A stretch of 64,000 nucleotides of DNA from Candidatus Saganbacteria bacterium. GTDB taxonomy: Bacteria > Margulisbacteria > WOR-1 > XYC2-FULL-46-14 > WPAF01. The translations under genes were made by a program, and so were the position numbers. Under the pieces are notes generated by a model. That model was not told where the DNA came from and did not search any database. It saw only the letters and a list, made by a program, of their open reading frames with translations. This document shows positions 21,542 through 64,000 of this stretch, piece after piece; positions within the stretch are counted from its first letter, which is position 1, and each line of letters starts with the position of its first letter. Location of the stretch: the NCBI GenBank assembly GCA_009772965.1, contig WPAF01000002.1:54199-118198 (forward strand). The letters run 5' to 3'.

Positions 21542-21550
21542 CGCGCGGAA

Positions 21551-27329: not shown

Positions 27330-27343
27330 AAAATCCCCCTTTT

Positions 27344-35791: not shown

Positions 35792-35802
<11 letters not shown>
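35419..35802 (+). CDS. ybeY: rRNA maturation endoribonuclease YbeY
   Basis: 127 aa with the HGTLHVLGYTH zinc-binding H3xH5xH motif. Confidence 0.85.
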
Positions 35803-38712
<2,910 letters not shown>

Positions 38713-38743
38713 TTATTTTCTTTATTGTATAATCTAATCAAGT

Positions 38744-39181: not shown

Positions 39182-39199
39182 CCCCTCAAGGAGTAAAAC

Positions 39200-44063: not shown

Positions 44064-44101
44064 GGAGATATTATATCAAAAAGGGAGCAAGAATTCGCTG
44101 T

Positions 44102-44425: not shown

Positions 44426-44799
44426 TTTAATAACTCCTTTGTTTTTTGCAGATATTCAACTGCTAATTTTTTGTCCGCCAACTTAGACATTTTTTCTGTG
44501 TATTCAGCATAGCGGGTTTCAATGCAAAAGGGGGTTAAGATTGCTAAAAGATCTTTTTGTTTCTGATCTAATTTAGAATTAACTTTTGCTAGTTCGGATA
44601 GTCTTGTTAAGTTGTGTATTCGCGGAGGAAATTCTTTTGAAATAGTAGTAATGATTGCTTTTAATAACTTCTCAATTGCTTGCTGACACATAAAAGTTAC
44701 ATAAAGGTAACGGCAGCCGTCAAGCATAACCTTTGCGCTTTCAAGGTCGTAGGCAGCATGTTTAATCCAATATTGAGTGATTTTATCTGGTTTTCTCAT
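44404..44799 (-). CDS. HEPN-domain protein (HepT-like toxin partner)
   Basis: 131 aa helical protein immediately upstream of the MNT gene and overlapping it. Conserved R...(E/H) HEPN-like segment (..CIETRYAEYTE..). Confidence 0.6.
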   Translation of the reverse strand: MRKPDKITQYWIKHAAYDLESAKVMLDGCRYLYVTFMCQQAIEKLLKAIITTISKEFPPRIHNLTRLSELAKVNSKLDQKQKDLLAILTPFCIETRYAEYTEKMSKLADKKLAVEYLQKTKELLKCLKEMI

Positions 44800-44886
44800 C
44801 TATATTATTATATCATTCAAAATAATTTTAAAGAAGTAAAATATTTTCGTAAAAAAGAATAAATCCCTAAGGGTATATGTTCCGTA

Positions 44887-46731: not shown

Positions 46732-46734
46732 GTG

Positions 46735-48114
46735 TTATTTTCCCTGTTGGATAATAATTTCCATTTCTTTTTTAGCCAGGTCAAGTTGTTTGGCAATTTC
46801 ATTTTTATCAAGCACGGTATCCTTTGATCCCGTCACATAATCCCATAAAATGCCGAATCTCCTGGTTAGCATTGGCTCAAGTATTCCCCAAAATGAAACG
46901 CAGGGATATGACTTGCCGTATTTGATCGCTTCTTTAAAAACCCTTCTTGCCGGATCAACCGAGAAAAATGGCTCGTTAAATACTGAGAGCTTGGCCGGCA
47001 AAAAGCCCGATGCCTTGCAATAGGTGAGCTGGGCGTTGGTGTCAGTTGTCAGGTATTTAACAACTTTAAAAGCTTCTTCTTTATGTTTTGAATATTTAAA
47101 GATGGCAAGGTTTGATCCGCCGACAAAGGTATATTTGCCTTTTGGCCCCTTTGGATAGGGGACAACCGCGTAATTCCTGGCGGTTATGCTTTCAGACGCC
47201 CCTCCCTGGGCTGGAGGAGTGGTTAATGTGCGGACTTCATACGGGCCGTCAAACATCATTGCCACGGAGCCGTTGTTAAAGTTTGATGATACCTGCGCGG
47301 TATTTAGCTCAAGATATTCAGAAGGCACTAGCCCTTCTTTTGCCAGGTTTATATAGAAAGAAACCCCATCAAGCGCCTGGGTTGAGCTTACAGCGGATGA
47401 TTTATTGTCTTTGGCTAAATAGTCACCGCCGGCAGACCAGATCCAAGGGGAAAGGTTATGTACTACGTTCCAGTCGTTTTTGCCGGGCATGCCGAGAGGG
47501 AATATTTCAAGCCCTTCAATTGTGAGCTTGGCTTCTTTTATTTTCTTCAGTGTGTTTTTAAAACCGTCCCAGGTTTCAAGGTCTTTTGAGGAAAGGTTTA
47601 ACTTTTTAAATACGTCAGTGCGATAAAACAATGCCCGCGCGTCCACTATCCATGGGACAGCCGTAATCTGTCCGGAATCTGCAACCCCTGAGGTTTTCCA
47701 GGCGGCGGGGACAAATGAATCTGCGCCTCCAAGTTCCAGTTCTTTATCCTTTAAATCCAATAAAGCGCCCATGCTGGAGATTGATCCCACCCAGGTTGAT
47801 CCGAGCTGAGCGATATCAGGCACATCGCGGGATGTGGCGGCGGTTGTGATTTTTGACCAGGCGGCGCCCCAGTCAACAACTGTAATTTTAATTTTAATGT
47901 TCGGGTTGGATTCTTCAAACGGCTTTAAAGCTTCTTCAATATCTTTTAGCGGCTCAAGGGAATTAGGCATGACCCACATATTTAATGTAACAGGGCCACC
48001 TTCTTTGCTGGCTGGGGCACAGGAAATAAGGGACAACGATAACGCGGCTAAGCAAAAGAATGCAAGTATTTTACGCACAGTTTTTCTCCTTTTCACTGGA
48101 TAACTTAACACCAT
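46735..48114 (-). CDS. ABC-transporter extracellular solute-binding lipoprotein (family 1, carbohydrate-type), orphan
   Basis: 459 aa with a signal peptide and lipobox (LSLISC|A). SBP_bac_1-like fold features. No cognate permease or ATPase genes are adjacent. Confidence 0.7.
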   Translation of the reverse strand: MVLSYPVKRRKTVRKILAFFCLAALSLSLISCAPASKEGGPVTLNMWVMPNSLEPLKDIEEALKPFEESNPNIKIKITVVDWGAAWSKITTAATSRDVPDIAQLGSTWVGSISSMGALLDLKDKELELGGADSFVPAAWKTSGVADSGQITAVPWIVDARALFYRTDVFKKLNLSSKDLETWDGFKNTLKKIKEAKLTIEGLEIFPLGMPGKNDWNVVHNLSPWIWSAGGDYLAKDNKSSAVSSTQALDGVSFYINLAKEGLVPSEYLELNTAQVSSNFNNGSVAMMFDGPYEVRTLTTPPAQGGASESITARNYAVVPYPKGPKGKYTFVGGSNLAIFKYSKHKEEAFKVVKYLTTDTNAQLTYCKASGFLPAKLSVFNEPFFSVDPARRVFKEAIKYGKSYPCVSFWGILEPMLTRRFGILWDYVTGSKDTVLDKNEIAKQLDLAKKEMEIIIQQGK

Positions 48115-48158
48115 ATTATACCAATTTATGAGGGGGAATACAAATGAAAACGCAACTC

Positions 48159-48172
48159 GCCTGCCGGCAGGC
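48159..48172. terminator. Second copy of the GC-rich palindrome motif (GCCTGCCGGCAGGC)
   Basis: A 14-bp perfect palindrome between the stop of the 48184 gene and the start of the SBP gene. Flanks CGCAA..T...CTGCCGGCAGGCAGGT are shared with the copy at 17455-17485. Confidence 0.35.
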
Positions 48173-48183
48173 AGGTAACGCGG

Positions 48184-48825
48184 TTAGATGGAGGAGGTTT
48201 CCAGAAGATAGCCTTTTACTCTTTTTTCAAAATCTTTTTTAATAACAGGGAGGGCAACTTTATTTCCTTTGGTAAATAATATCTCAGTGTAGTTTATATC
48301 GTCGAAACTGACTAAAGCTTTCAGATAAACGGCGGCATCAAAGCTTGTGTACTTCTTTTTGCAGTTTTCTATTATTTCTTTTAGGGAAGTTTTCTTGAAA
48401 ATATAATAGAGATCTACATAATCTTTAAATTCTGCCCGGAGCAAAGCGCAAATTTTCATGCAGGCAATGTCCATTGGATCTGCAATATTAAAAACCCCAA
48501 AATCCAGACATGGCCTTAAAAGGTTTTCTTTGATACAAAAAAAAGAAACTTTTATTTCATCAGCAACAACTAGATTTAATGTTTTATTACTAGCCTGTAT
48601 GACTTCTATTGAATAACCATTGAAAATTTCCCTAATTTCCCTTAAAAGATCTTCGGGGTTAAAAACCTTGTTTGTAAAAAAGTCAAAATCGATAGAATCC
48701 CGATGTCCTAATTGTAATGCCAACCCTGTTCCTGCTGCAAGATAGAAGCGGTCTTTGAAATCCTTGAACAAAGGAAGGATCTCTTTTCTTTTTTTATCCA
48801 AGATTTCAAGGTGTTTTTCTGTCAT
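48184..48825 (-). CDS. Third AbiEii-like nucleotidyltransferase (short)
   Basis: From the ATG at 48825: MTEKHLEILDKKRKEILPLFKDFKDRFYLAAGTGLALQLGHRDSIDFDFF matches the AbiEii/DUF1814 core. About 213 aa. Confidence 0.6.
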   Translation of the reverse strand: MTEKHLEILDKKRKEILPLFKDFKDRFYLAAGTGLALQLGHRDSIDFDFFTNKVFNPEDLLREIREIFNGYSIEVIQASNKTLNLVVADEIKVSFFCIKENLLRPCLDFGVFNIADPMDIACMKICALLRAEFKDYVDLYYIFKKTSLKEIIENCKKKYTSFDAAVYLKALVSFDDINYTEILFTKGNKVALPVIKKDFEKRVKGYLLETSSI

Positions 48826-49084
48826 GTTTAATACCAAAAAATATCCGCCAGAGGTTATTGCTGCGTTTATCAAGCTGCTTGCCGCCAAAAGACAAAACGT
48901 AGTTTTTTATTGAGGATTTATCCGAATTTTTAAAAAGCCAATGGATTGCAGGTATGCTGCCGTAGCTTAAAATCCGGCTAAAAATAAGCTTATAATTTTG
49001 GGAAAAAGAAAGTTTATCCAGATTTACATCCCAGAAATATTTTTTAAATTCTTTAGGAAGCTTTTTTTCTCTTTTTAATGACAT
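48806..49084 (-). CDS. Small basic protein, putative cognate partner of the NTase (unknown family)
   Basis: 92 aa ORF directly upstream of, and overlapping by 20 nt, the AbiEii-like gene. No recognisable motif. Confidence 0.3.
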   Translation of the reverse strand: MSLKREKKLPKEFKKYFWDVNLDKLSFSQNYKLIFSRILSYGSIPAIHWLFKNSDKSSIKNYVLSFGGKQLDKRSNNLWRIFFGIKHDRKTP

Positions 49085-49231
49085 GGGACATCCTCTTTTA
49101 GAAAAATTTTTATTACCATATTATATCACCTCACCCTGTCCCTCGACAAGTTCCTCGATTCTGAGATCTTCGGGATCGAAGGAAAAATACTTTATCACTT
49201 TGTCTGGATCGTAAAATATCGGCGAGAGTTA

Positions 49232-49426
49232 TTGAGGGAGAAGCAACAGACAGAGGAGTTTGTGAAGATATTGCGAGAGATTGCGGAGCGATACCGATAC
49301 GTGATAGATACGGTGGGGACAGTAGACGATGGCAGGACAGAGGAAAGCATCAAGCAATACATCGAGAAACAAGGGAAGGAAGACAAGCATGCAAGATTCG
49401 AGCAAATGCGAATGTTTAAGTTGTAA
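49232..49426 (+). CDS. Small charged ORF in a purine-rich segment (uncertain)
   Basis: 64 aa E/K/R-rich ORF. The surrounding 250 nt have a strong A+G strand bias unlike neighbouring DNA. Could equally be non-coding. Confidence 0.2.
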   Translation: MREKQQTEEFVKILREIAERYRYVIDTVGTVDDGRTEESIKQYIEKQGKEDKHARFEQMRMFKL

Positions 49427-49428
49427 AG

Positions 49429-49472
49429 GGTGGGGTACCCAGGTTAAAGATACCCCACCGCTTGCGGTGGGG
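49429..49472. other. Overlapping alternative GC-rich hairpins (possible RNA switch or terminator element)
   Basis: GGTGGGGTA(49429-37)...TACCCCACCGC(49451-61)..GCGGTGGGG(49464-72). The middle segment can pair with either flank, giving mutually exclusive stems of 8-9 bp each. Confidence 0.3.
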
Positions 49473-49544
49473 AGTTAAGTCATTTGGCCAAAATTGGAAA
49501 TTATTTGGGTAAAAGGGGCTTCCTACACTAAATTTAAGTATAAA

Positions 49545-49579
49545 CAATGAGGGGATTCTATTCTTGGATTTTCAGAATC
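49545..49579 (-). terminator. Rho-independent-like terminator of the minus-strand cluster
   Basis: An 11-bp stem GAGGGGATTCT/AGAATCCCCTC with a 13-nt loop, 20 nt after the stop of the 49600 gene. Followed on the minus strand by a U-rich AUUGUUUAUACUU. Confidence 0.45.
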
Positions 49580-49599
49580 CCCTCAAAGTTATAAAGAAT

Positions 49600-50091
49600 T
49601 TATTTTACAATTTTTGCCCAAACGGCATCAATTGCGGCTTTATCTGCCGAAGAATTGACTTTATCTAATCCGTCTGTATCATTTCCTTTTTCTGCCCATC
49701 TAACAATAATGGCGTATTTTAATTCATATGGATCTATAGTTGCTCCCTTTTTAATGGGTTTGCTGCCACCATTAGTTAAAGTGCCGTTTATAGTTATTAA
49801 AGCTGGACGGGAACCTGAAAGCTTTTTATCTCCGAGCAAACGGGCAATGTTTGCTAGTAGGGTTGGGTAACCGCTGTAAGGATTTTGCATCCAGCTTCTC
49901 ATATTAAATTTTTGAGAAGGGGTGTCTGTTAAATTTATCCCTTTTGCCCGTGCCGCTTTCTCAATGTTATTATAAGCGCCACCCTTAGCTGCTTTAACTA
50001 TTTCACTTTCCTTGGTAATATCAACATTAGCTGCTGTTTTAGTTTGATACAGTATTGACTGTATAGATTGTATCCCGTTAATTTCACTCAT
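49600..50091 (-). CDS. Hypothetical 163-aa protein, last gene of the large minus-strand cluster
   Basis: Intact ORF. Gly/Ala/Lys-rich, no TM segment and no recognisable domain. Separated by 50 nt from the upstream GH116-like gene. Confidence 0.4.
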   Translation of the reverse strand: MSEINGIQSIQSILYQTKTAANVDITKESEIVKAAKGGAYNNIEKAARAKGINLTDTPSQKFNMRSWMQNPYSGYPTLLANIARLLGDKKLSGSRPALITINGTLTNGGSKPIKKGATIDPYELKYAIIVRWAEKGNDTDGLDKVNSSADKAAIDAVWAKIVK

Positions 50092-50141
50092 TTTTTTCCT
50101 CCTAATTGTTTATTGATTTAATCAACAAGTCGACCTTAGCG

Positions 50142-53028
50142 CTATTGCCCTTGCTGATTTCCTTTTAAAACCAAGTATACCTGCCAAATGGAAAGATAAC
50201 GATAATAAGTCCTAGCCCTGTATCCATACATAGGCCCGTTGCCAATACCGGGTTCAACGGTATAAGCTTCAGGCCATAATCCCCAATTGTTAGCTTGATT
50301 AACTGCTAAATTGTAAGTTCCATATACAGTTTGCCAACCCTCTCTTTTTAAACCATAGGCAAGGAGACATGCGCCTAGTGCATAACTGCTGCCGAGCCAA
50401 ACTTCCCTTTCTTGTTCGCCATTGATTAATTTACCGTTTCTGGTGCCATTTACTGCACCGATAAATCCCCTTGCAAATCCTCTAACGCCGAAATTTGCAA
50501 CATTGTTTTTAAAGATTGTTTGCAAATGGCTTATTAGCATATTTCTTGGGAGAATCTCTCCTAATCCAGATATTTTTCCATATAAAAACGGCAGGACATC
50601 CGAAAAAACATCAGTCGAATTTTGTGAAAGATTAAAGTATCCTTTTTGATTCCAAAGAGCTTTTGTAAAATTAGATTTACCTTTTTCGTACCAACTCGAC
50701 AGTTCTGCTTCAGTTTTTTTATCCCCCATAAGCTTTGCCATTTCAATGCCGGCTTTTAGGGCATAGAGCCACATTGCGCTGGTATAAGTCATAGCCCCTT
50801 TTACATTCCAGTTGTCATAGGTTTGATCTGGAATACCAAGGTGAATTGGAAGGCCTAATCCCTTTGTGTCGAATCTTTTCGCATACCTTAATGCGGCAAT
50901 AACTCCTCCGTAAACTGACTGGATAAAGGATGTATTTTTTTTGCCTGATAAAACAAAATTTCTCCAGGCTTCAAGCGGAACGCACATTGATAATTCAGAC
51001 CAGACATTGGGGTTTTGGTGGTCATAAGAATTGTAGTCCAAAGCCGGATCGCTGTCTGGGGCGCCTATGTCATGTGGTGTCGCGTCTTTAATTTTTTTGG
51101 CATCAATATATACCTGTGCTAATAATTTGGCCTCATCTGTGGGCTTGCCTGACCTTATGAAATATTGATAAATCGCTTCCTTTTTTTGCTCGGTTGTTTT
51201 TAGTTTGTCAAAATTGGGAATTTTTTGGGCAAACTCGTTATAAGCAATCAAAGTCAAATCTCTTTTTCCGATTGCTCTTGAGTAATGAGCCATTAAATTG
51301 TTATGGAGCTTTGGCCAGAGCAAAGCTCTTGCCGCGGCGTAAATGCCGACATCCCTGGTTTCAGTATGCCGATAATCCATGCGGTTGCTTTCTCCCATAA
51401 TATGGAGGTTCCCCGCATTTGGGATATTTCCCCAATAAACCGCGCCGCTTTGTAAAAGAGATAATGAATTTATCAGCTCGCCCTTGAACCAATTTGGAAG
51501 TTTGTTATCGGTTAATATGGTTTTTTGCCAATTGCGGATTTGGGTTTGCCAGTTATCATAATTATCCAGTGCGTATTTTGCGATTGCAACCGCATTTTGG
51601 CCGGAGTTCCCAAAATATTTTGTGTATTGCTTATCGTATACAATTCTTTCTTTTTTACTTGCATCTTTGAAGCCAAAAGCGGTTTTTGGAAAATCATAAA
51701 CAAAAGCAATCGGGATATTTCTAACTTCACCCGCTTTTAAGCTGAATTTTATCGCAATCGCGCCAGCCAGCGAATCATTTGCATTTGCTTTGGCTGTATT
51801 ATTTGTATTGGAAAGTTCGCCGTTTCTATAAAATCCTGATACTTCCCGTCCATTGCCATTTGCGTTAAAGCGAGAAACGTAGGTTATTTTAATGCCCGGA
51901 ACTTTTTTTATGGCAATTGCTATTTGCCCTTTACTGCTGATGGTTTGCGGGTTCCCCGTCAAAAATCAGGTAAAAATAATTTTGGTCTTCGACGATGCGG
52001 TTAAAATTTCCTAAATTGTTTGGCAAGAATTGTGTTTGGAGCATTTTCGATCTTGCACTGCCGGCAGGCTGGCCGGATTCTGGAAAAATTGAATTTATGC
52101 CGGGCAGAGTAACTTCTCTATATGCTTTTGGGTCCCAGGTATTTTCATTAGTATTTGCCCAGCCGACTAAATTTTGAAATGAAAGCATCACGGAAGATTC
52201 TACATTTTCTTTTGAGGTGTTATTCATTTGAACATTAAACATAAGCACTGGCAGAGATGATTCTTTGTGATTGCCTGGAATGATGGGGCTGCTGCTGCGG
52301 ATTGTTAAACGAACCGGGAACTCGCGGTAAACATGCCAGCTTAACGGGTAAAGAGAATGGAAGGTTGTCTTTTCAGCGTTTACGCCCCATTTCCAGCCGC
52401 TTAATTTTCCTTCCGGAGCCATTGTGTTTAATGTGCGCGAAACAACTCCTCTGCTGTTTTTAAAATATACATGGAATTGGCTGGCGGCATTTCCTTTGGG
52501 ATCAAAAATGTTTCTGCCGGGATTAATAAAATCAACAGTTGGAAATCCTCCTGCTGGCCAAAAAGTTATTCCCCCTGTACCCAGTCCGCCCAAGGGTAGG
52601 GCATATGGAATGGCGTTTCCCTTTCCATCAGTGGGAGTGCCTGTCATACGCATATATGCGATTCTATTATCACCATAGTTGCCATAAGGGATTAACCTAA
52701 CAGATGTGTCATGGGCGGCTTTTGGAATCCCTGCAGGGAGTGAAAGGCCTGGATATCCAAGTTTTTGTAAAATATATATAACAATTCGTTTTAGGTATTG
52801 TTCTTTTTCCTGGCCAGGAGTAAAAGACCTGCTTATTGCTTCTGCAATCAATTGGTTAAACTTGTTTTCATTAATTATTTTTCCGCCGGTTGCCTTTGGA
52901 GATAAATATCCTTTCTCAATTAAATGCTGTTTGTAAAATTTATTAAGAAGAAACGAAATTTGCTGGTTTATAGGAAGATTTTGGAAGTGCCTTAAAGGAA
53001 GATTGAAAACAATATTATTTATTCCCAT
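50142..53028 (-). pseudogene. GH116-family (GBA2/glucosylceramidase-like) beta-glycosidase split into two overlapping frames
   Basis: Upstream ORF (53028..51931) contains ..IPYALPLGGLGTGGITFW.., the signature of the GH116 N-terminal beta-sandwich. Downstream ORF (51962..50142, TTG start) looks like a GH116/DUF608-type catalytic (alpha/alpha)6 domain. The frames overlap by 32 nt around an A/T homopolymer-rich stretch. Confidence 0.55.
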
Positions 53029-53107
53029 TTATAACCTCCACGAATTTATAATAATACTTCGTAAGAGATTTTTGGAAATTTCAGGCTATTTTGGAATAAT
53101 AGTTAAT

Positions 53108-55291
53108 TTAAAAAGTTCCCTCAAACATTATACTATGGGATTGGCTGCTAGACCTGAATCTATCATCATAGTAATTGCCCTCATATTTGAGGGATAAATT
53201 TGGAAGTTTCCAAAATACTCCCCTAAGTCCCACCCCCCATTGCAAAGAGATAATATTTCCAAACCTGGAGTTGAAAAACGTGAATGCGGAAAACGGCTGG
53301 TTAAAAGCGGTAAATTGGTATTCTGCACCGAAGCCGAGTGAAATATAGTATCTCCAATAATTAATTTGTTCATAAGCGCCCCCGTCTTCAACCTTTTTTT
53401 CAGAATACCTCGGCCATAATCCATTGCCCGTAATCTCAAGAGGGTTATATTCAATCCCAAATCCAAGGTATGGGGAAATTTTTAATGTAGAATCATTGAT
53501 CCCAAAAGAATTTGCATATCTAAAAATAAATGGCTCAAAAGTCCAAGAAAAATTATCTTCTGGCCGGGATTCTGATGCATTTTTTAGGCTGTTTAATCTG
53601 TCTTCAGTTTTTACCTTTTTATTTGGGAATTCAGCAATATTCTGCTTGCTGGCTGTTACAAGAGGGCTTTCGCTGCCAACGGGTTTAAAAGCAAAACCCA
53701 TTGATCCCCCCGCTAAAATAAGGCCTTTTTCGCCGATAGGAAATTTATATTCACCAGCTGTTTTAACGCCAAGCACCAGGGAAGAAAATAATGAATTCTG
53801 CGGAGTTTGGGCTTGATATTTATTGCTTTCTTCGTCCCATGAATACCTATGTAATTTAATGCCAGCAAAAGTAAGCTGGGCAAACGGAGTAAACCTGAGA
53901 TTATAATGGTCCCTTTCTAATCCATATTCTGCACCAATTGATAAAGAATGGGTTTCACTAATATTAAGGCGGGGAATTTTAGCGCTGAGTGAGTCAGTTT
54001 GGAAATCAAAAGTCCTAGCGGGACTCATAGAATAATCAATATTAAGCTGTAAATTTTGGGAAAGCCTTGCCTTGCTGCTAATAGAAAAGGAAACCCCTTC
54101 TGTTAATGAAGAAGTTGCCTTCCCTGTTTGATATGAGTCTTTTACATAAGCTGTGCTAAAATTTATTTCAGCTAAAGTTCCAAAATCCTTATGTATAATT
54201 GCATACTGGGCGGCAATAAGCCTTTCTTCGATTTTACTGCGTTCCGCATCATAGGCGCTAATTGGAACTTTACTCAGTATACGCAGGGCTTTTTTGATTT
54301 CTCGTTTAGCTTCTTTGTATCTTCTAAGCTGGGCAAGGGCAGTGGCTCGCCCCGCATGCAGCTGTGCAAGTATTTTTCTGCTGTCATGGTCAAGATCATT
54401 ATGCCTAAAGAGGTTTATTCCGGCTGAGAAGTATCTTATAGCTTCCCGATAGTTTGATTTTCTAAGCCGTAAAATATCTCCCATTCCAAGAAAATATTGC
54501 ACAAAGTAACGGCGGAATGGCATTTTATCCCGCAGCATATCTGCGGTTCTTTTTGCCTGTTCATAATAATTGGTAGATTGCGGAATATTTCTCCTCCTGT
54601 AATTAAAAAGATCAGCGAGTGATAATAGGGCAGGAGTTATTATTTTTCTAAGCTTTAACCTGATATTTTTATTTGTTGGGTCTTCTAAGAAATCCTTGAA
54701 TACGGGATATTCGACGATTTTCCTATACTCAGCCAGGGCTGACCTGACTTTTCCGTTTTCAAGATAAAGCTTTCCAAAACCGTTTCTCAGCCGTAAATAT
54801 ATCTCAAGGAAAGTTTTATAAGCAGGGGTTATTAATTTATCCCCTTGGCTCTCAATATTTGCAATTGCCTTAATTAACTTTTGCTTTGCATCGCTTGACT
54901 TATCTTCACTTGGTTCTGGCTTGGTTCTTTTAAGTGCTTCTGAAATAACCATTAAAGCTTTATTGTAAATTGGTTCTGCTTCATCATATCTTGCCATTTT
55001 AAAACAATACACGTCGCCGATTGCAGAATGGATATTTGCCAAAAACTCAGATTCTTTGATTCCAAATCTTCTTATTTTTAAGGTTTTTAATGTTTTGTGG
55101 TATTCGTGAATGGCTTTATCGTATATTTTTGCCGCGATCAGGTTTCCAATAAAGCCAAAGCGAAACGCCCAGCGATTGGCGTTGATGGCAAAAAGAACTT
55201 CTTTGTTAAGCAGTTTTGGCTCGCCGTTTGCCCCTCGGCTTTTGGCAATGCTTCCCACCCAGGAGCGAGTAATATAAGAGCAGGGAGGCAA
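53108..55291 (-). CDS. TPR-repeat protein with C-terminal outer-membrane beta-barrel (BcsC/PgaA/PelB-like architecture)
   Basis: The N-terminal 380 aa form helical TPR-like repeats. The C-terminal 340 aa show an amphipathic beta-strand pattern with aromatic girdle residues and a terminal ...SIMFEGTF, typical of OMP barrels. The annotated start overlaps the upstream gene by 86 nt, so the true start may be internal. Confidence 0.55.
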   Translation of the reverse strand: MPPCSYITRSWVGSIAKSRGANGEPKLLNKEVLFAINANRWAFRFGFIGNLIAAKIYDKAIHEYHKTLKTLKIRRFGIKESEFLANIHSAIGDVYCFKMARYDEAEPIYNKALMVISEALKRTKPEPSEDKSSDAKQKLIKAIANIESQGDKLITPAYKTFLEIYLRLRNGFGKLYLENGKVRSALAEYRKIVEYPVFKDFLEDPTNKNIRLKLRKIITPALLSLADLFNYRRRNIPQSTNYYEQAKRTADMLRDKMPFRRYFVQYFLGMGDILRLRKSNYREAIRYFSAGINLFRHNDLDHDSRKILAQLHAGRATALAQLRRYKEAKREIKKALRILSKVPISAYDAERSKIEERLIAAQYAIIHKDFGTLAEINFSTAYVKDSYQTGKATSSLTEGVSFSISSKARLSQNLQLNIDYSMSPARTFDFQTDSLSAKIPRLNISETHSLSIGAEYGLERDHYNLRFTPFAQLTFAGIKLHRYSWDEESNKYQAQTPQNSLFSSLVLGVKTAGEYKFPIGEKGLILAGGSMGFAFKPVGSESPLVTASKQNIAEFPNKKVKTEDRLNSLKNASESRPEDNFSWTFEPFIFRYANSFGINDSTLKISPYLGFGIEYNPLEITGNGLWPRYSEKKVEDGGAYEQINYWRYYISLGFGAEYQFTAFNQPFSAFTFFNSRFGNIISLQWGVGLRGVFWKLPNLSLKYEGNYYDDRFRSSSQSHSIMFEGTF

Positions 55292-58200
55292 TAATTTCCG
55301 GCTGTTTTACGTCATCCGGAATATTTTCGATTTCGCTATTGATATTCCCCAAGCTGTTTAATGCCCAGGTGAGCGAACCAAATGCTCGAGTATTTATAGC
55401 TGCTAAGTTTAAAGTGTCAGGATTTCCCAACTTGATCAAATTTGTCATTATGGTATTTATTTGTTGCAAGATGGATTTGTATTGTGCCTGAGCTTTTGTT
55501 AATTCTCCATCTTCCTCAAATAATTGGCCAAGCATTACACTTGCCTCAATTCCTGCGATCTTAGCTTGGTGTTTTCCTATATCAATTAAATGTTTTATTT
55601 TGGTATTTGTATCTTTTGAGAAATCTAGAGAATTGAATAGTTCTATAACCTTAGAAAGTATAGCTTTTGTTTTTACACCGGCAGCTTTAATGACTTCGTA
55701 CGAATTGAGCTTGATCATATTTATGCTTGTTTCCGCGAGCAGAAGCAAATTATTGCTTGTTAATTGTGTGCTTTTGCTTCTTAGGGATTCTAGTAATTCA
55801 ACAGGATAGGCGGGTAATTTTGACTGATCAATTCCAGCAAAAATTATTCTATCTTGCCCTAAAACTGCCCTTAATATGTCTGAAGCAATTAGAAAGTTTT
55901 CCTTTCCTTTGCCTTCCTCAACCAATATATCTTGAATTCCGCCGCGCACTGCATAAATCATAGAGAGGATCTGAGCCCCGCGGAATGCCAGCCGGAATGA
56001 ACCTTTCTCCAATGCGCATTTTGTGTTGTTTATAATGCCATCCAATAAATCATTATTTTTCAGGAATGATTGAACTTTTCCTAATTCATTATTTCTTAAG
56101 AGAAGTTTTATTTTATATGCTGAGGTTTCAGCCAAGCCAAACATAGAAATTATCCCGCCGCGATCATTTTTTTCAGTTTTAAATTGGGTTTCTGCGGTTT
56201 TAAATGCGGTTTCAACCTGTTCTAGGTTTTCCAACTCGCGCTCAAACCTTATTTTCATGAGTTCTGCAATGCTGTATAAAAGGTTGCCTTTGGAGATGCA
56301 TAATTCGCTCAAGGCGTATTTTTGGCCGGCGTCAGGGCTATTTGCAAGCGCTCTAAATATATCAATTGCCTTGTCAAAACATCCATTTGCTTTTGTACGG
56401 TCAAGATTTTGAATATGCTGCCAGCCCGTGGTTCCATATATTTGTGCCTTAAGCATCAATAATTGCAGTTTTTGGGTTTTATTCAGCCTATTTGAAATCC
56501 CATTTGCCGCATTTTGAATATTGTTTAATTCATCAATAATAGTTTTTCCGGTTGAGGTAAAGGTGATTTTTGCAAGCGCGATTTTTGCCTCAAGGATTGA
56601 TATTTGAGCGTTATTATAATTTGTTTCATCAGAGCCGATCGTTTCAAAATCGGCAATTGCCTCACTATATCTCTCTAGATTTGCCAGCAACTCTGCCCGC
56701 CTTTGGGCAAGCGCTGAAGGAGTTAAATTTGTCTCAATTTGCATGATGAGTTTGCGATCTTCTCTTACGGGGCATTGAGATATCTTTTTATATAATTCCA
56801 ATGCGGCATTGAAATCGGCTTTTCCTTCGCCGGATTCTTCTTTTGCAATTGTTCCCCTAAACGAATGCGCCCAAGCAAGGGTTGAGAGAGATTGGTAATA
56901 GGCAAATAAGTTATGCTCTGTGCTGGTTGGCGAGCCGTTAATTCCGCAGATTGAAGTAGGAGAGCATGCATTTGGCTGTATATTCATTGTAGTATTGAAC
57001 CAGTCAACTGCCTTTTTTGCTAAAGCATATGCTTCATTTATTTTAATGAGTGTTTCTTCGGCATTTTTGGTAATTGGGTAAGATCTGCTTATCATTTGTA
57101 AAATAACATTAGCTTTTTTAGCTTGAATTCTTGCCAAAAATGACGGGCGCAATTGATATGTGCCATTTAATTTTGCTTTTGTAGAAATAATGTTGTCACA
57201 TTCATTGTTTGCTTCGGTAAAGCGCCTTGCCGTAGTTAGGGCATCAACTAAGCTCAATGAAAGCTCCATCTCGTTGGTCGCGTTTCTTTGGAGGATGTCT
57301 ATTCCTGAGATTCTAATTGGTTTTCCTTTACTTAGATTTTTATAATTATTCGAGATTTGCGACATGGCGCCGCTGAATTTATTCAGTATTGCCCAAAGAT
57401 CCGAAATAGAACCTTTAAGAGCGGTATCACTATTTAATTTGACTTCACCATGCAAAAGCCATGTGTATATTGCGGCCGCTTTTAAAGCTTCATTAGCGCC
57501 TGAGCCGGGCTCTGCTTTTTCTAGCAGGGATGCGCGCATATTGTACGCCCAGGCAAGGGTTGAGAAGAATGAATAAACTATGTCTGGCGCCATGTTGGGC
57601 GGCATATTTGACAACTGTTTTATGCATATGTCAATGGCACCCTTAATTGCGGTTTTGGCTAGGTCAGGATTTTTTAAGCTAAGTCGTTTCGCGATTTCAA
57701 TGAGTAAAAACGCGTGGATGCTGTAAGACCTGGTTTTATACATATACTTTGAAATAGTTACATCGTTATGGTCTTCAAGCCCGGTCCTTATGTTATTAAT
57801 AGTATTTGCTAAAGTGGATAGTTTTTGTTTAAGTGTGTTTTGATCAATTTTACCCGCGGCCATTTCATCGGTTATTATTTTGTCGGGGCGGAGCATTAAG
57901 AGCTTAATGTTTTCAATTTCCATCTTAAATTGCTGATAGAGTTCTTGATTTATTTCCGCGAGTAATTTCCCCCTTATAAGGCCATTAACATATTCTGGAG
58001 AAAATCTAATTTGTTGTCTTTTAATCCAATATGAAACACCAAAATGGTTAGACAAGTCGCCATTGATCAGCCCATTATATTTATTTAATGCGAGAGAAAA
58101 ATATTTTTCTGCTTCGTCATAGTTCCGTTGTTCGCGATAATGCCGGCCTTTGGTGGAATCAATAATAGTGCTATTGCTGGCATAGGCTATAATTTGAGAC

Positions 58201-58439
58201 AAGAACCAAGGAGAATTTGACATCGATCTTCTTACAATTGAATTTTTGGCGGTGTTTTCAAAAAGCGTGTTAGCAATTGATAGCTTGCAGTAATCCCCGT
58301 CTCTTGGAAGACTGGCGGATGCGTCAAGCAAAGCCTCGAGATTCTTCTTAAGGTCCAGGTCTGTGCGCTGTGCGTCAATGACGTTCGTACCGGGTTGGGC
58401 CAGTATATTACTATCTATTTTTGAAGTTCCCGGGGGCAT
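55206..58439 (-). CDS. Large (1077 aa) alpha-helical TPR-like repeat protein
   Basis: An uninterrupted ORF with pervasive helical-repeat composition (A/L/K/E-rich; W/Y-L-G/A-Y TPR-like periodicity). No catalytic motifs recognised. Confidence 0.55.
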   Translation of the reverse strand: MPPGTSKIDSNILAQPGTNVIDAQRTDLDLKKNLEALLDASASLPRDGDYCKLSIANTLFENTAKNSIVRRSMSNSPWFLSQIIAYASNSTIIDSTKGRHYREQRNYDEAEKYFSLALNKYNGLINGDLSNHFGVSYWIKRQQIRFSPEYVNGLIRGKLLAEINQELYQQFKMEIENIKLLMLRPDKIITDEMAAGKIDQNTLKQKLSTLANTINNIRTGLEDHNDVTISKYMYKTRSYSIHAFLLIEIAKRLSLKNPDLAKTAIKGAIDICIKQLSNMPPNMAPDIVYSFFSTLAWAYNMRASLLEKAEPGSGANEALKAAAIYTWLLHGEVKLNSDTALKGSISDLWAILNKFSGAMSQISNNYKNLSKGKPIRISGIDILQRNATNEMELSLSLVDALTTARRFTEANNECDNIISTKAKLNGTYQLRPSFLARIQAKKANVILQMISRSYPITKNAEETLIKINEAYALAKKAVDWFNTTMNIQPNACSPTSICGINGSPTSTEHNLFAYYQSLSTLAWAHSFRGTIAKEESGEGKADFNAALELYKKISQCPVREDRKLIMQIETNLTPSALAQRRAELLANLERYSEAIADFETIGSDETNYNNAQISILEAKIALAKITFTSTGKTIIDELNNIQNAANGISNRLNKTQKLQLLMLKAQIYGTTGWQHIQNLDRTKANGCFDKAIDIFRALANSPDAGQKYALSELCISKGNLLYSIAELMKIRFERELENLEQVETAFKTAETQFKTEKNDRGGIISMFGLAETSAYKIKLLLRNNELGKVQSFLKNNDLLDGIINNTKCALEKGSFRLAFRGAQILSMIYAVRGGIQDILVEEGKGKENFLIASDILRAVLGQDRIIFAGIDQSKLPAYPVELLESLRSKSTQLTSNNLLLLAETSINMIKLNSYEVIKAAGVKTKAILSKVIELFNSLDFSKDTNTKIKHLIDIGKHQAKIAGIEASVMLGQLFEEDGELTKAQAQYKSILQQINTIMTNLIKLGNPDTLNLAAINTRAFGSLTWALNSLGNINSEIENIPDDVKQPEIIASLLLYYSLLGGKHCQKPRGKRRAKTA

Positions 58440-58478
58440 TTTAACCCTCCCTTCTTTTCCTCTGCTGCTTATATATCG

Positions 58479-61400
58479 TTAAAAATGCCTTAGAATTTCA
58501 TTGATTATCTGGGTATCATAGAGGGAGATGGCCTTTTTCTTCCCAAGAAAGTTCTGTATACTCAAAATAGCGTTTTTTTGGTGTTGATCAAGCTTGCTTG
58601 TTTTTTTGTCTAAAGAAAACAAGCCGAATAGGCTGACCAGATCCCTTAGCTTGTTGTCTGGAATAAAACCTCCAGCCGCGGTCCTAACTGTTTTGACAAG
58701 GTAAGAGAATGCTTTGCGGTCATTTTGCAGGGAGCTATAAAGCATGACCGAACCGGCTAAAGCTTCAAGATTGTGGCGGTCATATTTTAATGCTTCGCGG
58801 TAATATTTTAAGGCCTTTATTATTGTTCTGTAGGTTTCTGTCTGTTGTCCTTTTTCACCTTTTAAAATGATCTTTTCCCCTGGTTCAATCATAAGCGTCC
58901 ACCAGGTAAAATTTCCTAAGAAAGCCAGGAATTTCGCATTGTTTGTGTTGTCCTTATTAAAAAGTTCCTCTATTTGGGGCGCGTATTGGCCTATTTTTTT
59001 TGCCAGTCCTAAAAAGGAATTTATAACATCGTTTGAATCTGAGTATATAAAGGAGTCTTTGTTAATCTCCTTCCCAATTACTCCTATTTTAAATGCGTGT
59101 ATAGAAATATAATTGTCACTAATAGTTTTTATTTTTTGCCCAATTCTTCTTATGTCATTATCAATGTTTGTTGTCGGCTGGTTATTGCCTTTGGCTAATA
59201 TCAAATTGTTGTTGGCTAGCATCAATTGGCTCCTGGCTGTGGAGAGTCTGTTGGTGTCCAGGACCAGGTGCATTATCTCGGTCATTAATTGGGAGATGAT
59301 TTCGATATCTTTTTTGTATTTGCTTTTTATTTTTGGATTATCTGATAGCCTATAATATTCATGAAGCGAAGCGTGGGCGGCAAGACAAACGTCTGATAGC
59401 TCGTTTATTACCCGGATTATGTGCATCGCGGGAAGGGTGGGGTTGGTAAATTTGATTGAAGGGATGCTGTTTAATAACAGGATGGCGTCCTTGAATTCTG
59501 TAAGTTTGTGAGCTTGCGCCCCCGCGCTAACCAAAACAGAACTTAACTTGAGGAGCCATTTTGTTTGAGCGACGTTCCTGGGGTCTGATGATTTGAAATG
59601 GTTAACCAATAAGCCGGCGGCTTGCGAAAAAAGCGTTTTGTCCGGCAGATCAAATCTGGCGCTGGGTTGGGAAGTAAAATTGTGTTCTAAGCTCGCGGTA
59701 ACACCCGTTATAATATTATTGAACCTGTTAAAAGTTGACAAAATAGAACTTGATATTTCTTTTAAGGTTTTTATGGCTGCTTCGTAATCCTTGCTGAAGC
59801 CAGTTACTACTATTTCTTTTTTCTTGTTTGCGGCTTCTTCTGTATAATCCCCTGTAAATTCATTATTATTCGCAAGATTGTTAATGCTTTGAATGTGTTC
59901 ATCTTTTTGTTTTTTTAATACATCAAGCTTAAACAGGAGGGTTCCCATCCAGCTATCGATTATCTCGGAAATGGATTGGTAGTTTTTGGTGGTGTTCACC
60001 TCTTCCACCAGCGCTTGTTTAAAAGCATATTCAGCAATAGAGCAGGCAGCAATAATCTTCTGGTATTCATTAACCAAATTTGCTTGTCTTTGCTCATATG
60101 ATTCTCCGCTGTTATGTATATCTTTTTGATTTAACCAGTAAAGATGAAACGGGTCGGAAAATTTCCTTCTCTGAAAATCATCATTTAAGTCAAAAATTCT
60201 TCTTTGCAGAATACGGGCAATTTTATATAAAATATGTGCTTTTGCTTGAGTAGGGAATTGGGATTTATAAATCTCAAAGACTTTTAGCAAATCTTTGATG
60301 GGAGGGTTGGAGGGAAGGTTTTTGATTAATCCTTTCTCTCTTAACTTTTCAATTACCGGATGGTTTTGCTCAAGGATAACTGCCGCGAGATTAAAAGCGT
60401 CTGAATAGTTGTATTGCTTTCGCGGGAATTCAATGGTTTTATTGTTTGGGAGCATAGTGAAATGATTTACAGAATAACCGCTGGCGGCAGTGTCAATAAT
60501 TTCACTTATGACCTGGACGATAAAAGCCTGCTGAGGAATAGGTGTGTTCCCATGTTCTCCGGAAAATCCAATGTTATATACATGCTCCATCAATTTATTG
60601 GGCCAGGAAGATAAGCTGTTCTTGCTGTTTTCTAATTCAACAAGCAGGAGGTTTTCCTGGCTTTGGGCCAGAGTAAAACGCCGGCTCCGGTTCAATTCTT
60701 GTATGTAAGCAAGGCGCAGGATCATTTTTATGCGCGTGCATTTGTGATCCAATTCAAGAAACCATTTGAACCGGTCTTCAATTTCAGTTGATAAGACATT
60801 TAGGGTTTCTAAAATATTTTTTAGGCGGTTTATGGCAAGGGTAAAGATAAATTGATCCGCGGGTCCTTTAAGGCTCTGGGTAAAAAGAATGAGGTTCCGG
60901 TAAGCCTCAGATGCTTCATCATAACGCCCAACACCCAGGCAAGATTCCGCAAAGTTAAACTGGGCAAGAATGGTTTTGTCATTAATTGCAGCCTTTTTAT
61001 AATAGTGGTATCTTCTTTCCGCCTCTATCGCCATAACTGGTTTTTCTTCTATATCGCTCTTAAAAACATGCCGAGCGATTAAAATTCCGGGGAACAATAT
61101 GTCATCTCTTGCCATTTTGGCAAAATAGTCAACGTCTTCCATGCCCAATAAAATATGATTAAACGGTTCATCTGAAAGGGGTTGGGGAGTACGATTAATT
61201 ATTTTACCACGCGCAACTATTGACGGGCTTATCTTCTTATTAAAAGCGAGCTCAAGCATTGAAGCGGCGCGCAAAAAAAGCATAGTATTGTAATATTGCG
61301 GCCCTTTTTTGCCTTTTGAATCAATATAATCGTAAACGCTCTTAGTTGATATATATTTGTTAAGTTCATTAATGAATTGAGTATAAGCTTCGGCTTTTTC

Positions 61401-63188: not shown

Positions 63189-63189
63189 A

Positions 63190-63969
63190 TTATTTCACGC
63201 TCCCGTATGCCCAAATGTGGTTTTTCTCTTCCCATTGTTTCGCGTCTTCTATTGGGCTCACCCCTTGATTTAAACCATACCCCCTAATGGTGTAGTATGA
63301 TGCCAGGCCGATCCAAAAGATCATGGAAGCGATCCCCAGCTCATAAAAGTCAACATACTTGGCCCCAGAAAAAACATGCCGGCCCAACCTATAAATTGCT
63401 AAGAAGTTAAGAACAGTTAACAATTTGCTCCTGCCCATATATTCTTCACTAAAGAGTTTTTTTCCAAAGCTTTTTACCTTCATCGGCTGTTCTAACGGGT
63501 CGGTTACATTGAATCCGGCTTTTTCATTGTGCCAAAACCTTCTCATCACATAATTGTAGTTAAAATGAAGCATAACCTTTTCATACCCCATGTTTGAGGT
63601 AACTCCAGTCCAGGAAGATCCCGCGGATATCCTGGAATATCTTAATACCCCTTCAATCATCAGATAGTTGACAAAACCGGTTTCAATTATCCAGTTGAGC
63701 GGTTCTTTAAATGTGGTCCCAAAGGCGTTGGGATTGGGCATCATTATGGAAGGGTGCCCAAAAAAGATAAAACCCAGCGAAGCATAAGCATTGGCCAAAC
63801 CGGGCATCCCAAACATGTTGTATAGCGGCCCCTGTATAAGGTCAAACGCGGTTTTTGCCGGCATGACTTTGCGGTATTTCCAGCAGTATTTTACGGCCAT
63901 TCTAATAAGCGCGGCGTTCATTGCCATCCAGCGAAGTTTTTGGAACATATCAGCGTTAAATTCAAGCAT
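63190..63969 (-). CDS. Hypothetical 259-aa protein at the head of the cluster (aromatic-rich)
   Basis: ORF with an ATG at 63969. W/Y/F/G/N-rich and possibly beta-rich. Its stop is 1 nt from the start of the giant gene, consistent with translational coupling. The region upstream lies outside the window. Confidence 0.4.
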   Translation of the reverse strand: MLEFNADMFQKLRWMAMNAALIRMAVKYCWKYRKVMPAKTAFDLIQGPLYNMFGMPGLANAYASLGFIFFGHPSIMMPNPNAFGTTFKEPLNWIIETGFVNYLMIEGVLRYSRISAGSSWTGVTSNMGYEKVMLHFNYNYVMRRFWHNEKAGFNVTDPLEQPMKVKSFGKKLFSEEYMGRSKLLTVLNFLAIYRLGRHVFSGAKYVDFYELGIASMIFWIGLASYYTIRGYGLNQGVSPIEDAKQWEEKNHIWAYGSVK

Positions 63970-64000
63970 GGCGTCGTTTTGCTGGCGTAGTCCCCTAACG

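What the first reader, a model, noticed from the sequence alone, without database searches (positions are those of the whole stretch)
53108..55291. TPR + beta-barrel outer-membrane protein whose start overlaps the upstream 1077-aa TPR gene by 86 nt
The C-terminal 340 residues have alternating hydrophobic/polar beta-strand periodicity and end in ...MFEGTF, the aromatic C-terminal residue used by BAM substrates. The N-terminal part is TPR-like, as in BcsC, PgaA and PelB. No classical signal peptide is evident at the annotated start, and the 86-nt overlap with the upstream 3.2-kb TPR gene is unusual. The TPR-porin function may be split across two genes, or a frameshift or stop may have divided one very large BcsC-like gene.
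Basis: partly seen in the sequence, partly recalled or inferred. Interest (0 to 1): 0.55.

Follow-up and report, generated by a model that had tools for sequence, protein, structure and literature searches.

The report
Giant TPR-barrel gene broken by deletion
The "727-aa outer-membrane protein with an overlapping start" is the tail of one 1,807-residue gene, a long helical-repeat arm ending in an outer-membrane barrel, which this genome assembly has cut in two by a 92-base deletion; the intact protein belongs to an uncharacterised family in relatives of cyanobacteria that has no export signal.

Summary
The ORFs are real as described: 53108..55291(-), 727 aa, overlaps 55206..58439(-), 1077 aa, by 86 nt. 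The overlap is not a gene start. Public contigs that are 100.000% identical to the window on both sides (ENA ERZ27284377, Logan SRR8863440) carry 92 extra bases between window 55251 and 55250. With them the region reads as one intact 1,807-aa gene. The two window ORFs match its residues 1-1063 and 1095-1807 exactly. The missing 31 residues align with a conserved Trp and helix in every relative, so the window has a deletion. More than 11 distant relatives (1,700-2,065 aa; Saganbacteria, Margulisiibacteriota, one MAG labelled Omnitrophota) are also single polypeptides.

AlphaFold2 (pLDDT 84) predicts about 1,430 aa of TPR-like solenoid followed by a C-terminal beta domain of about 350 aa. That domain's Foldseek hits are all outer-membrane barrels (FadL, BcsC, PelB, OmpG). 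The gene sits in a conserved trio: a 2,300-2,600-aa polytopic membrane protein, a membrane-anchored or Tat-signal GH8-like TPR protein, then this gene. SBP-GlmS-GH42-GH94 usually follows.

The best reading is a BcsC-like outer-membrane conduit of an uncharacterised glycan apparatus, inactivated or mis-assembled in this MAG. None of about 20 family members has a signal peptide, and I cannot explain that.

The parts
53108..58439 (-). One disrupted gene (GenBank FD145_280 + FD145_279). It corresponds to the intact 1,807-aa TPR-solenoid/beta-barrel protein P0072 found in otherwise identical public contigs.
   Evidence: blastn shows 100.000% identity on both sides of a 92-nt gap. The window ORFs equal residues 1-1063 and 1095-1807 of P0072. 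Relatives are single polypeptides.
55250..55251 (-). Deletion junction. 92 nt present in L005 (17939-18030), L006 and L007 are missing here. They encode KDQRTIDKLFTDKVKAWTKANLNGFTNFMN plus the first two bases of the next His codon.
   Evidence: There is no microhomology and no repeat at the breakpoints. The missing residues align with a conserved Trp and helix in 13 relatives.
55251..58439 (-). Codons 1-1063 in the correct frame: the N-terminal all-helical TPR-like solenoid.
   Evidence: AF2 gives mean pLDDT 84 and pTM 0.81, helices only. Foldseek hits are TPR solenoids such as IFT-A, Ctr9, Ski3 and the OGT TPR domain. It is colinear with P0004, P0013 and P0020.
58445..58453 (-). Shine-Dalgarno-like AAGGGAGGG, 5 nt upstream of the true ATG at 58439.
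   Evidence: Read directly from the sequence.
55206..55250 (-). Out-of-frame tail created by the deletion (HCQKPRGKRRAKTA + stop). It is not part of the native protein.
54173..55249 (-). Continuation of the solenoid (native residues 1095-1453), now in the +1 frame relative to the upstream part.
   Evidence: AF2 places helices at 19-358 of the 716-aa fragment. Pfam TPR_12, TPR_2 and TPR_8 match here.
53111..54172 (-). C-terminal beta-barrel domain (native residues about 1454-1807). It has roughly 14-16 long strands, a helical insert, and a C-terminal ...MFEGTF.
   Evidence: AF2 places strands at 363-715 with pLDDT mostly 80-95. All top Foldseek hits are outer-membrane barrels. The terminal aromatic residue is conserved in the family.
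58479..63188 (-). Conserved upstream partner: a 1,569-aa protein with an N-terminal membrane anchor, a GH8-like (BcsZ-like) region and TPR-like repeats.
   Evidence: TM segment at 25-43. Weak BcsZ hit. Orthologues hit Pfam GH8 and carry Tat signals.
63190..64000 (-). C-terminal 270 residues of the conserved 2,616-aa polytopic membrane protein (FD145_282). It runs off the window.
   Evidence: Orthologues stand in the same position in L001, L003, L004, L009 and L010.
39875..48114 (-). Conserved downstream block: SBP lipoprotein (46735-48114), GlmS (44887-46731), GH42 (42222-44063) and GH94 (39875-42241), with a HEPN/MNT pair inserted at 44102-44799.
   Evidence: The same order follows the TPR-barrel gene in distant relatives.

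Best explanation
The 727-aa ORF is not a gene of its own. It is the last 713 codons of a single 1,807-codon gene. In this metagenome-assembled genome (GenBank 'Candidatus Saganbacteria bacterium', FD145_279/280) the gene has lost 92 nt between window 55251 and 55250. That shifts the frame by +1 and creates a false stop 45 nt downstream.

The intact protein has about 1,430 residues of TPR-like helical solenoid followed by a C-terminal outer-membrane-type beta-barrel of about 350 residues ending in an aromatic residue. This is the architecture of the exopolysaccharide export porins BcsC, PgaA and PelB.

The gene is the third member of a conserved trio:
- a 2,300-2,600-aa multi-pass membrane protein with no recognisable domain;
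- a membrane-anchored or Tat-exported GH8-like (BcsZ-like) TPR protein of 1,175-1,600 aa;
- the solenoid-barrel protein.

My inference is that the three form an envelope-spanning apparatus that handles a beta-linked glycan. The barrel would be the outer-membrane pore, the solenoid would span and guide through the periplasm, and the GH8 domain would trim the polymer, as BcsZ does for cellulose.

In the window allele the barrel part has no usable start and no ribosome-binding site. If the deletion is real, this is a null allele present in part of the population. If it is not real, it is an assembly error in the deposited MAG.
For: **Shown**
- The window is 100.000% identical to ENA contig k119_62277 over 8,750 + 20,364 nt on either side of a 92-nt gap. 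Logan contig SRR8863440_29365 also carries the 92 nt.
- With the 92 nt the region is one 1,807-aa ORF, present on 2 ENA contigs.
- The window ORFs equal residues 1-1063 and 1095-1807 of that protein.
- The 31 deleted residues align with a conserved Trp and helix in 13 relatives.
- An exhaustive phmmer search found relatives of 1,700-2,065 aa. At least 11 of them match both window ORFs colinearly within one chain.
- No candidate start of the downstream ORF has an RBS. The true start has AAGGGAGGG.
- AF2 gives pLDDT 84 for both halves. Residues 1-1062 are all helical. The 716-aa fragment has helices at 19-358 and long strands at 363-715.
- Foldseek hits for the C-terminal fragment are exclusively outer-membrane barrels. 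Three BcsC entries and PelBC are among them, and two of the BcsC alignments span 669-689 columns, covering the TPR part as well as the barrel.
- Most family members end in a C-terminal aromatic residue.
- The trio is syntenic in six loci from distant relatives.
- The partner protein has GH8 or BcsZ matches and Tat or TM signals.
- Saganbacteria and Margulisbacteria have outer-membrane proteins (OmpM), according to bioRxiv 10.1101/2021.05.31.446380.

**Inferred**
- The glycan-conduit function. It is drawn by analogy with BcsC/BcsZ (PMC11379886).
Against: - No member of the family has an N-terminal signal peptide or any hydrophobic helix. The N-termini cannot be extended in five loci (window, L001, L003, L004, L009), because the upstream gene ends 3-92 nt before the start. 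Every characterised bacterial outer-membrane barrel uses Sec, so outer-membrane localisation is unproven.
- There is no sequence-level match to BcsC, PgaA or PelB family models and no PDB sequence hit.
- Foldseek TM-scores are modest (0.25-0.55).
- No glycosyltransferase domain was detected anywhere in the trio or next to it. A polymer synthase has therefore not been identified.
- Whether the deletion exists in cells cannot be decided without reads.
Confidence: 0.8

Rival explanations
1. The split is natural. The solenoid and the porin are two separate proteins, as with AlgK/AlgE, and the downstream one is translated from the overlapping TTG or GTG start.
For: Two ORFs are annotated in GenBank as separate proteins. 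Split TPR/porin systems exist in alginate export (PMC9734138, listed).
Against: Identical contigs carry one 1,807-aa ORF. All relatives are fused. No candidate start has an RBS or a signal peptide. The upstream ORF ends in 14 out-of-frame residues that are absent from the intact protein.
Confidence: 0.03
2. The two halves are joined by programmed +1 ribosomal frameshifting or transcriptional slippage.
For: A +1 shift is formally what is needed to join the frames. The neighbouring GH116 gene also needs a shift.
Against: The difference from the intact allele is 92 missing bases that encode conserved residues, not a slippery site. Frameshifting would yield a protein lacking a conserved helix. No relative has a shift at this position.
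Confidence: 0.01
3. The 92 nt is an artefactual insertion in the other assemblies, and the window shows the true sequence.
For: Only one ENA contig (held as three overlapping loci) and one Logan contig were read for comparison. They may derive from the same reads.
Against: The 92 nt restores a 1,807-aa reading frame. It encodes residues that align with a conserved Trp and helix in relatives only 20-35% identical. Independent assemblers (MEGAHIT-style ENA contigs and Logan) agree.
Confidence: 0.02
4. The protein is a type Va autotransporter. The C-terminal barrel would translocate the helical solenoid to the cell surface as a passenger.
For: A weak Pfam Autotransporter hit (E = 0.0096, below threshold). 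Foldseek hits to the EstA, Hbp and NalP translocators at about 1e-6.
Against: The beta domain is about 350 aa with roughly 14-16 strands and a helical insert, not a 12-stranded domain of about 270 aa. FadL, BcsC and PelB score better, and the BcsC alignments cover the TPR part as well. There is no signal peptide. The constant GH8-like neighbour fits a BcsC/BcsZ-type arrangement.
Confidence: 0.08
5. The barrel is an uptake channel (FadL-like or porin-like) that feeds oligosaccharides cut by the GH8 domain to the SBP lipoprotein and the cytoplasmic GH94 and GH42 enzymes. On this reading the locus is a glycan utilisation locus, not a secretion system.
For: The top Foldseek hit is FadL. The conserved downstream genes are an SBP, a GH42 and a GH94 phosphorylase, which are catabolic types. 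No synthase domain was found.
Against: No ABC permease or ATPase genes accompany the SBP in any of the loci. GlmS is biosynthetic. A 1,430-aa periplasmic solenoid and a 2,600-aa membrane partner are unlike any known uptake system.
Confidence: 0.2

Closest known systems
BcsC (cellulose synthase outer-membrane subunit; PDB 6tzk, 9b8a, 9b8h)
   Same: A periplasmic TPR solenoid fused to a C-terminal outer-membrane beta-barrel. It is encoded next to a GH8 endoglucanase-like protein (BcsZ). It is among the best Foldseek matches, with alignment over both the TPR part and the barrel.
   Different: No sequence similarity is detectable. The solenoid is about twice as long (about 1,430 aa, against about 19 TPRs in BcsC). 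There is no signal peptide. Here the GH8 domain is itself fused to a long TPR region and anchored in the membrane. No BcsA or BcsB homologue is nearby; a domain-less 2,600-aa membrane protein stands in that position.
PelB / PelBC (Pel exopolysaccharide exporter; PDB 9h80) and PgaA (PNAG exporter)
   Same: The TPR-plus-porin architecture of synthase-dependent exopolysaccharide secretion. PelB is a Foldseek hit at 4.8e-7.
   Different: No sequence-level match to a PelB or PgaA family model was found in this protein, and none of the neighbouring genes examined was recognised as PelC/PelA/PelD-G or PgaB/C/D. There is no signal or anchor sequence. The lineage is different (Saganbacteria and Margulisbacteria, in the Terrabacteria).
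FadL / TodX family and OmpG (14-stranded monomeric channels)
   Same: These give the best barrel-only superpositions: FadL at E = 4e-9, and OmpG with a target-normalised TM-score of 0.5-0.55.
   Different: They have no TPR solenoid and are about 250-450 aa in total. They transport small hydrophobic molecules or sugars. They carry Sec signal peptides.
AlgK/AlgE (alginate)
   Same: A TPR protein plus an outer-membrane porin that work together.
   Different: In alginate export they are two genes by design. Here the two-gene state is an accident of a deletion in one assembly.

Membership tests
BcsC family (cellulose synthase operon protein C) | Sequence match to the BcsC C-terminal barrel model or BcsC family models | tested here: not met
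   Pfam at E <= 0.1 and NCBIfam at E <= 1 list no BcsC model for the 727-aa ORF. NCBIfam at E <= 0.1 lists none for the intact protein. phmmer against PDB sequences finds no BcsC.
BcsC family (cellulose synthase operon protein C) | Architecture: periplasmic TPR solenoid followed by a C-terminal outer-membrane barrel (16 strands) | tested here: inconclusive
   AF2 predicts the solenoid plus a barrel-like domain, and Foldseek matches BcsC at 4e-9 and 1.2e-8. The strand count of about 14-16 was estimated from the DSSP string only, because the coordinates were not inspectable.
BcsC family (cellulose synthase operon protein C) | Genomic association with the BcsA/BcsB synthase | tested here: not met
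   No GT2, BcsA or BcsB domain was found in the genes examined in the window, in the 490-aa and 2,616-aa genes upstream in L005, or in the L001 genes examined. Only a BcsZ-like GH8 neighbour is shared.
BcsC family (cellulose synthase operon protein C) | N-terminal Sec signal peptide | tested here: not met
   The best 10-residue hydropathy in the first 70 residues is 1.03 for this protein and at most 1.95 across about 20 relatives. The SBP lipoprotein control scores 2.94. This is my own crude measure; SignalP was not available.
BAM-dependent outer-membrane beta-barrel proteins (general) | C-terminal beta-signal ending in an aromatic residue | tested here: met
   The window protein ends ...IMFEGTF. 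15 of the 19 relatives that are not visibly truncated end in F, Y or W.
BAM-dependent outer-membrane beta-barrel proteins (general) | Closed antiparallel barrel with a lipid-facing hydrophobic belt | tested here: inconclusive
   The fold search returns only outer-membrane barrels. Many strands show dyad hydrophobicity, but the overall signal is modest. Membrane insertion cannot be tested with these tools.
Type Va autotransporters | Pfam Autotransporter beta-domain above threshold; 12-stranded barrel with a helix in the pore | tested here: not met
   The PF03797 score is 16.1 bits against a cut-off of 26. The beta domain is about 350 aa with more than 12 long strands.
Glycoside hydrolase family 8 (neighbouring 1,569-aa protein) | Match to the GH8/BcsZ models | tested here: inconclusive
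   The window protein gives only a weak NCBIfam BcsZ hit (E = 0.0021). Its orthologue in L001 passes the Pfam GH8 threshold (27.1 against 24 bits). Other orthologues carry precomputed GH8 hits. Catalytic residues were not checked.

The most novel reading that the evidence does not exclude
The solenoid-barrel protein, the GH8-like TPR protein and the 2,300-2,600-aa domain-less membrane protein make up a previously undescribed envelope-spanning machine of Saganbacteria and Margulisbacteria. Its outer-membrane barrel subunit would reach the periplasm without a Sec signal peptide. It might be carried by its Tat-signal-bearing GH8-TPR partner ('hitchhiking'), or exported by the giant membrane protein. 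The giant protein's invariant SED-x35-QxxRW pair beside transmembrane helices could mark a cryptic processive glycosyltransferase.
Probability: 0.25. Interest if true: 0.75.

Novelty: new variant of a known kind. Interest (0 to 1): 0.4.

Why it matters
**For annotation.** Two 'hypothetical/TPR' proteins in GenBank (KAF0135141.1 and KAF0135142.1) are fragments of one gene. Their odd overlap should not be read as a sign of unusual gene organisation.

**For biology.**
- The intact gene defines a rare family. About 25 representatives were found among 1.84 billion protein clusters, all annotated as hypothetical.
- The family reproduces the TPR-plus-porin design of exopolysaccharide exporters in the non-photosynthetic sister lineages of Cyanobacteria.
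- It has three unusual traits: a solenoid about twice the usual length, no signal peptide in any member, and constant linkage to two other very large envelope proteins of unknown function.
- If the barrel really sits in the outer membrane, its route across the inner membrane is an open question. It could be tested once any member is expressed heterologously.

Tried and rejected
- **Word-indexed homologue searches.** Searches with the 727-aa ORF and with a 17-sequence alignment found nothing. Only the exhaustive phmmer search found the family.
- **First guess at the shift point.** I placed it at a frame-B Trp near 55260. That was wrong: the conserved Trp is encoded inside the missing 92 nt.
- **Related-locus searches.** The search for related loci with the broad alignment failed for lack of a conserved stretch. 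The narrower alignment gave two genome loci and one metagenome locus, all of relatives already found by the phmmer search.
- **Junction search.** An exact search of JGI metagenomes for the 33-mer left of the junction found nothing. No independent copy of either allele was obtained from that collection.
- **Breakpoint repeats.** I looked for direct or inverted repeats at the deletion breakpoints as a mechanism and found none.
- **Logan contig end.** I considered whether the Logan contig ending 34 nt past the right breakpoint reflects a graph branch caused by two alleles. The position does not fit k = 31 exactly, so I treat it as uninformative.
- **Readthrough fusion.** I considered a readthrough fusion of the 1,569-aa and 1,807-aa genes, which are in frame in the window and separated by TAA plus 13 codons. 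I rejected it because the relative frames differ in L001 and L003, and a strong RBS precedes the ATG.
- **Glycosyltransferase in the giant protein.** I searched with Pfam, NCBIfam, PDB phmmer, a PDB profile search and a profile search of 5.8 billion proteins. None gave a hit.
- **Literature.** The giant-gene papers on Omnitrophota do not describe this system. No paper mentions SRR8863440.
Full report
**1. The observation**

The window contains ORF 53108..55291(-) (727 aa, first start TTG) and ORF 55206..58439(-) (1077 aa, ATG). They overlap by 86 nt.
- The downstream ORF ends ...SIMFEGTF. Its N-terminal half has Pfam TPR matches above threshold. Its C-terminal half has only sub-threshold Autotransporter and OMP_b-brl matches.
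- None of the six possible start codons in its first 114 codons has a Shine-Dalgarno sequence or a signal peptide.
- The TPR_12 match begins upstream of the first ATG.
- The upstream ORF has a strong AAGGGAGGG 5 nt before its ATG.

The description is accurate, but the 'start' is only the point where the frame opens.

**2. The split is a 92-nt deletion in this assembly**

The neighbouring 1,569-aa protein is found, residue for residue, on other public contigs. blastn shows the following:
- Window 64000..55251 and 55250..34887 are 100.000% identical to ENA contig ERZ27284377:k119_62277 (L005, L007).
- That contig has 92 extra bases between window 55251 and 55250.
- Logan contig SRR8863440_29365 (L006) is identical to the window as far as 55251.

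One search shows that L006 then continues through the same 92 nt. With them, the region is one uninterrupted 1,807-codon gene:

...LLGGK|KDQRTIDKLFTDKVKAWTKANLNGFTNFMN|HIAKSRG...

- The window's two ORFs equal residues 1-1063 and 1095-1807 of that protein.
- They also equal GenBank KAF0135142.1 (1077 aa) and KAF0135141.1 (716 aa, GTG start at 55258). Both come from a MAG named Candidatus Saganbacteria bacterium.
- 92 = 3n+2, which gives the +1 frame offset and a 14-residue out-of-frame tail before the false stop at 55206.
- The breakpoints show no microhomology and no repeat.
- In an L-INS-i alignment with 13 relatives, the 31 missing residues align with a conserved Trp and a following helix. 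The 92-nt form is therefore ancestral and the window form is a deletion.
- I cannot tell without reads whether the deletion exists in cells or arose during assembly. In the collections I could query, the intact 1,807-aa product is on two ENA contigs and the 92 nt is also in a partial Logan contig. The truncated products appear only in the NCBI MAG.

**3. Relatives are always one protein**

- The word-indexed search found nothing.
- An exhaustive phmmer search over 1.84 billion cluster representatives found 71 hits. The best are 1,700-2,065-aa proteins in which the 727-aa query matches only the C-terminal ~700 residues.
- At least 11 of these also match the 1077-aa ORF colinearly in their N-terminal ~1,050 residues.
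- The named ones are 'hypothetical protein' from Candidatus Saganbacteria and Candidatus Margulisiibacteriota. One MAG is labelled Omnitrophota.

**4. Structure**

- *C-terminal fragment.* AF2 on the 716-aa fragment with 16 relatives gave mean pLDDT 84. It predicts helices at 19-358, then long strands at 363-715 with a helical insert at 532-569.
- *Fold search.* Foldseek against the PDB returned only outer-membrane barrels among its top hits: FadL 4e-9, BcsC 4e-9 and 1.2e-8 (669-689 aligned columns, covering both the TPR part and the barrel), PelBC 4.8e-7, then OmpG, autotransporter translocators and OccK porins. TM-scores were 0.25-0.55.
- *N-terminal part.* The first 1,062 residues are predicted all-helical (pLDDT 84, pTM 0.81). 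They match TPR solenoids.
- *Composition.* The beta region is richer in aromatic residues and glycine than the helical part. Many strands show a hydrophobic/polar dyad pattern, although the overall statistic is modest.
- *C-terminus.* Most relatives end in F, Y or W.
- *Limit.* I could not inspect the coordinates. The strand number of about 14-16 is an estimate.

**5. Genomic context**

In six loci from relatives that are only 20-35% identical, the gene is preceded by the same two genes.

*The GH8-like TPR protein (1,175-1,603 aa)*
- Pfam GH8 is above threshold in the L001 orthologue. Other orthologues carry precomputed GH8 hits.
- The window protein and L009 give weak BcsZ hits.
- It has an N-terminal membrane anchor in the window.
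- Three orthologues have a twin-arginine signal (SRRTFL, TRRGFL, and a TIGR01409 hit above its cut-off).

*The polytopic membrane protein (2,284-2,616 aa)*
- It has no Pfam, NCBIfam or PDB match.
- Only two further relatives exist among 5.8 billion proteins.

*Downstream genes*
- An SBP lipoprotein, GlmS, GH42 and GH94 usually follow.
- In the window, a block of a frameshifted GH116 gene, a 163-aa ORF and a DUF6922/AbiEii pair is inserted between the barrel gene and the SBP.

**6. How it probably works**

Shown: the protein has the solenoid-plus-barrel architecture of BcsC, PgaA and PelB, and it is constantly linked to a GH8-like periplasmic protein.

Inferred: it is the outer-membrane conduit of an apparatus that moves a beta-linked glycan across the envelope. 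The GH8 domain would play the clearing role shown for BcsZ (PMC11379886). The host lineages are diderm, with OmpM homologues (bioRxiv 10.1101/2021.05.31.446380).

An uptake role, feeding the SBP and the GH94/GH42 enzymes, is a real alternative. An autotransporter reading is less likely.

In the window allele the barrel cannot be translated independently. The allele is null if the deletion is real.

**7. What does not fit**

- No member of the family has a signal peptide or any hydrophobic helix. The SBP in the same window has a textbook lipoprotein signal.
- N-terminal extension is excluded in five loci (window, L001, L003, L004, L009).
- No synthase domain was found.
- Two leads are unverified: the Tat signals on the partner protein, which raise the possibility of co-export, and an invariant SED-x35-QxxRW pair next to transmembrane helices in the giant protein. 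From memory, that spacing is the same as between the TED and QxxRW motifs of BcsA. Profile searches gave no support for this.

**8. Verdict**

The feature that drew attention, the overlapping start and split TPR/porin, is a 92-nt deletion in one deposited assembly and is ordinary. The gene beneath it is an uncharacterised, structurally BcsC-like family with some odd properties. I rate it a new variant of a known kind, of moderate interest.

Noticed in passing
window 50142-53028 (-): The GH116 beta-glucosidase gene immediately downstream is also split by a +1 frame change. ORF 51931..53028 carries GH116_N profile positions 1-156, and ORF 50142..51962 carries positions 186-312 plus the catalytic domain. 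The shift lies near GACGGGGAACCC. Unlike the TPR-barrel split, this one is also present in the ENA contig, so it is probably a genuine pseudogene or a frameshift in the organism.
   Followed up: partly
window 63190-64000 (-), QKLRW at 63928-63942; full gene in L005 2149-9999: The C-terminus of a 2,616-aa multi-pass membrane protein with no detectable domain. Across six orthologues, an 'SED' and a 'Q..RW' 36 residues later are among the few (near-)invariant positions: E, D, R and W are invariant and the Q is kept in five of six. They sit beside transmembrane helices and recall the TED/QxxRW motifs of processive GT2 synthases. Pfam, NCBIfam and PDB profile searches gave no support.
   Followed up: partly
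L001 5208-9986, L003 2511-6719, L009 5380-9984 (orthologues of window 58479-63188): The GH8-like TPR partner carries a twin-arginine (Tat) signal in three orthologues but a plain hydrophobic anchor in the window protein. Together with the signal-less barrel protein, this raises the untested idea of Tat co-export.
   Followed up: partly
window 48184-53028 (-): The block of GH116 (frameshifted), a 163-aa ORF of unknown function, a DUF6922 ORF (48806-49084) and an AbiEii toxin (48184-48888) is absent from the syntenic loci of relatives, where the SBP gene follows the barrel gene directly. It looks like an insertion.
   Followed up: partly
window 14269-15556 (+) and 44102-44799 (-): A second AbiEii toxin gene (14837-15556), with a 198-aa upstream ORF that may be its antitoxin, and a HEPN/minimal nucleotidyltransferase pair (44404-44799 and 44102-44425). 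That makes three toxin-antitoxin-like modules in 64 kb.
   Followed up: no
window 39875-48114 (-): The order SBP lipoprotein - GlmS - GH42 - GH94 is conserved next to the trio in distant relatives, but no ABC permease or ATPase genes accompany the SBP in any locus examined. The SBP may not be part of a conventional importer.
   Followed up: no
window 21886-29275 (-): A V/A-type ATPase operon (subunits I, A and B, among others). A tRNA gene lies at 21471-21542 (-).
   Followed up: no
window 58479-58481 vs 58439: The TAA stop of the 1,569-aa gene is in the same frame as the next gene's ATG, 13 codons downstream. This is coincidental: the relative frames differ in L001 and L003, and a strong RBS lies between them.
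   Followed up: yes
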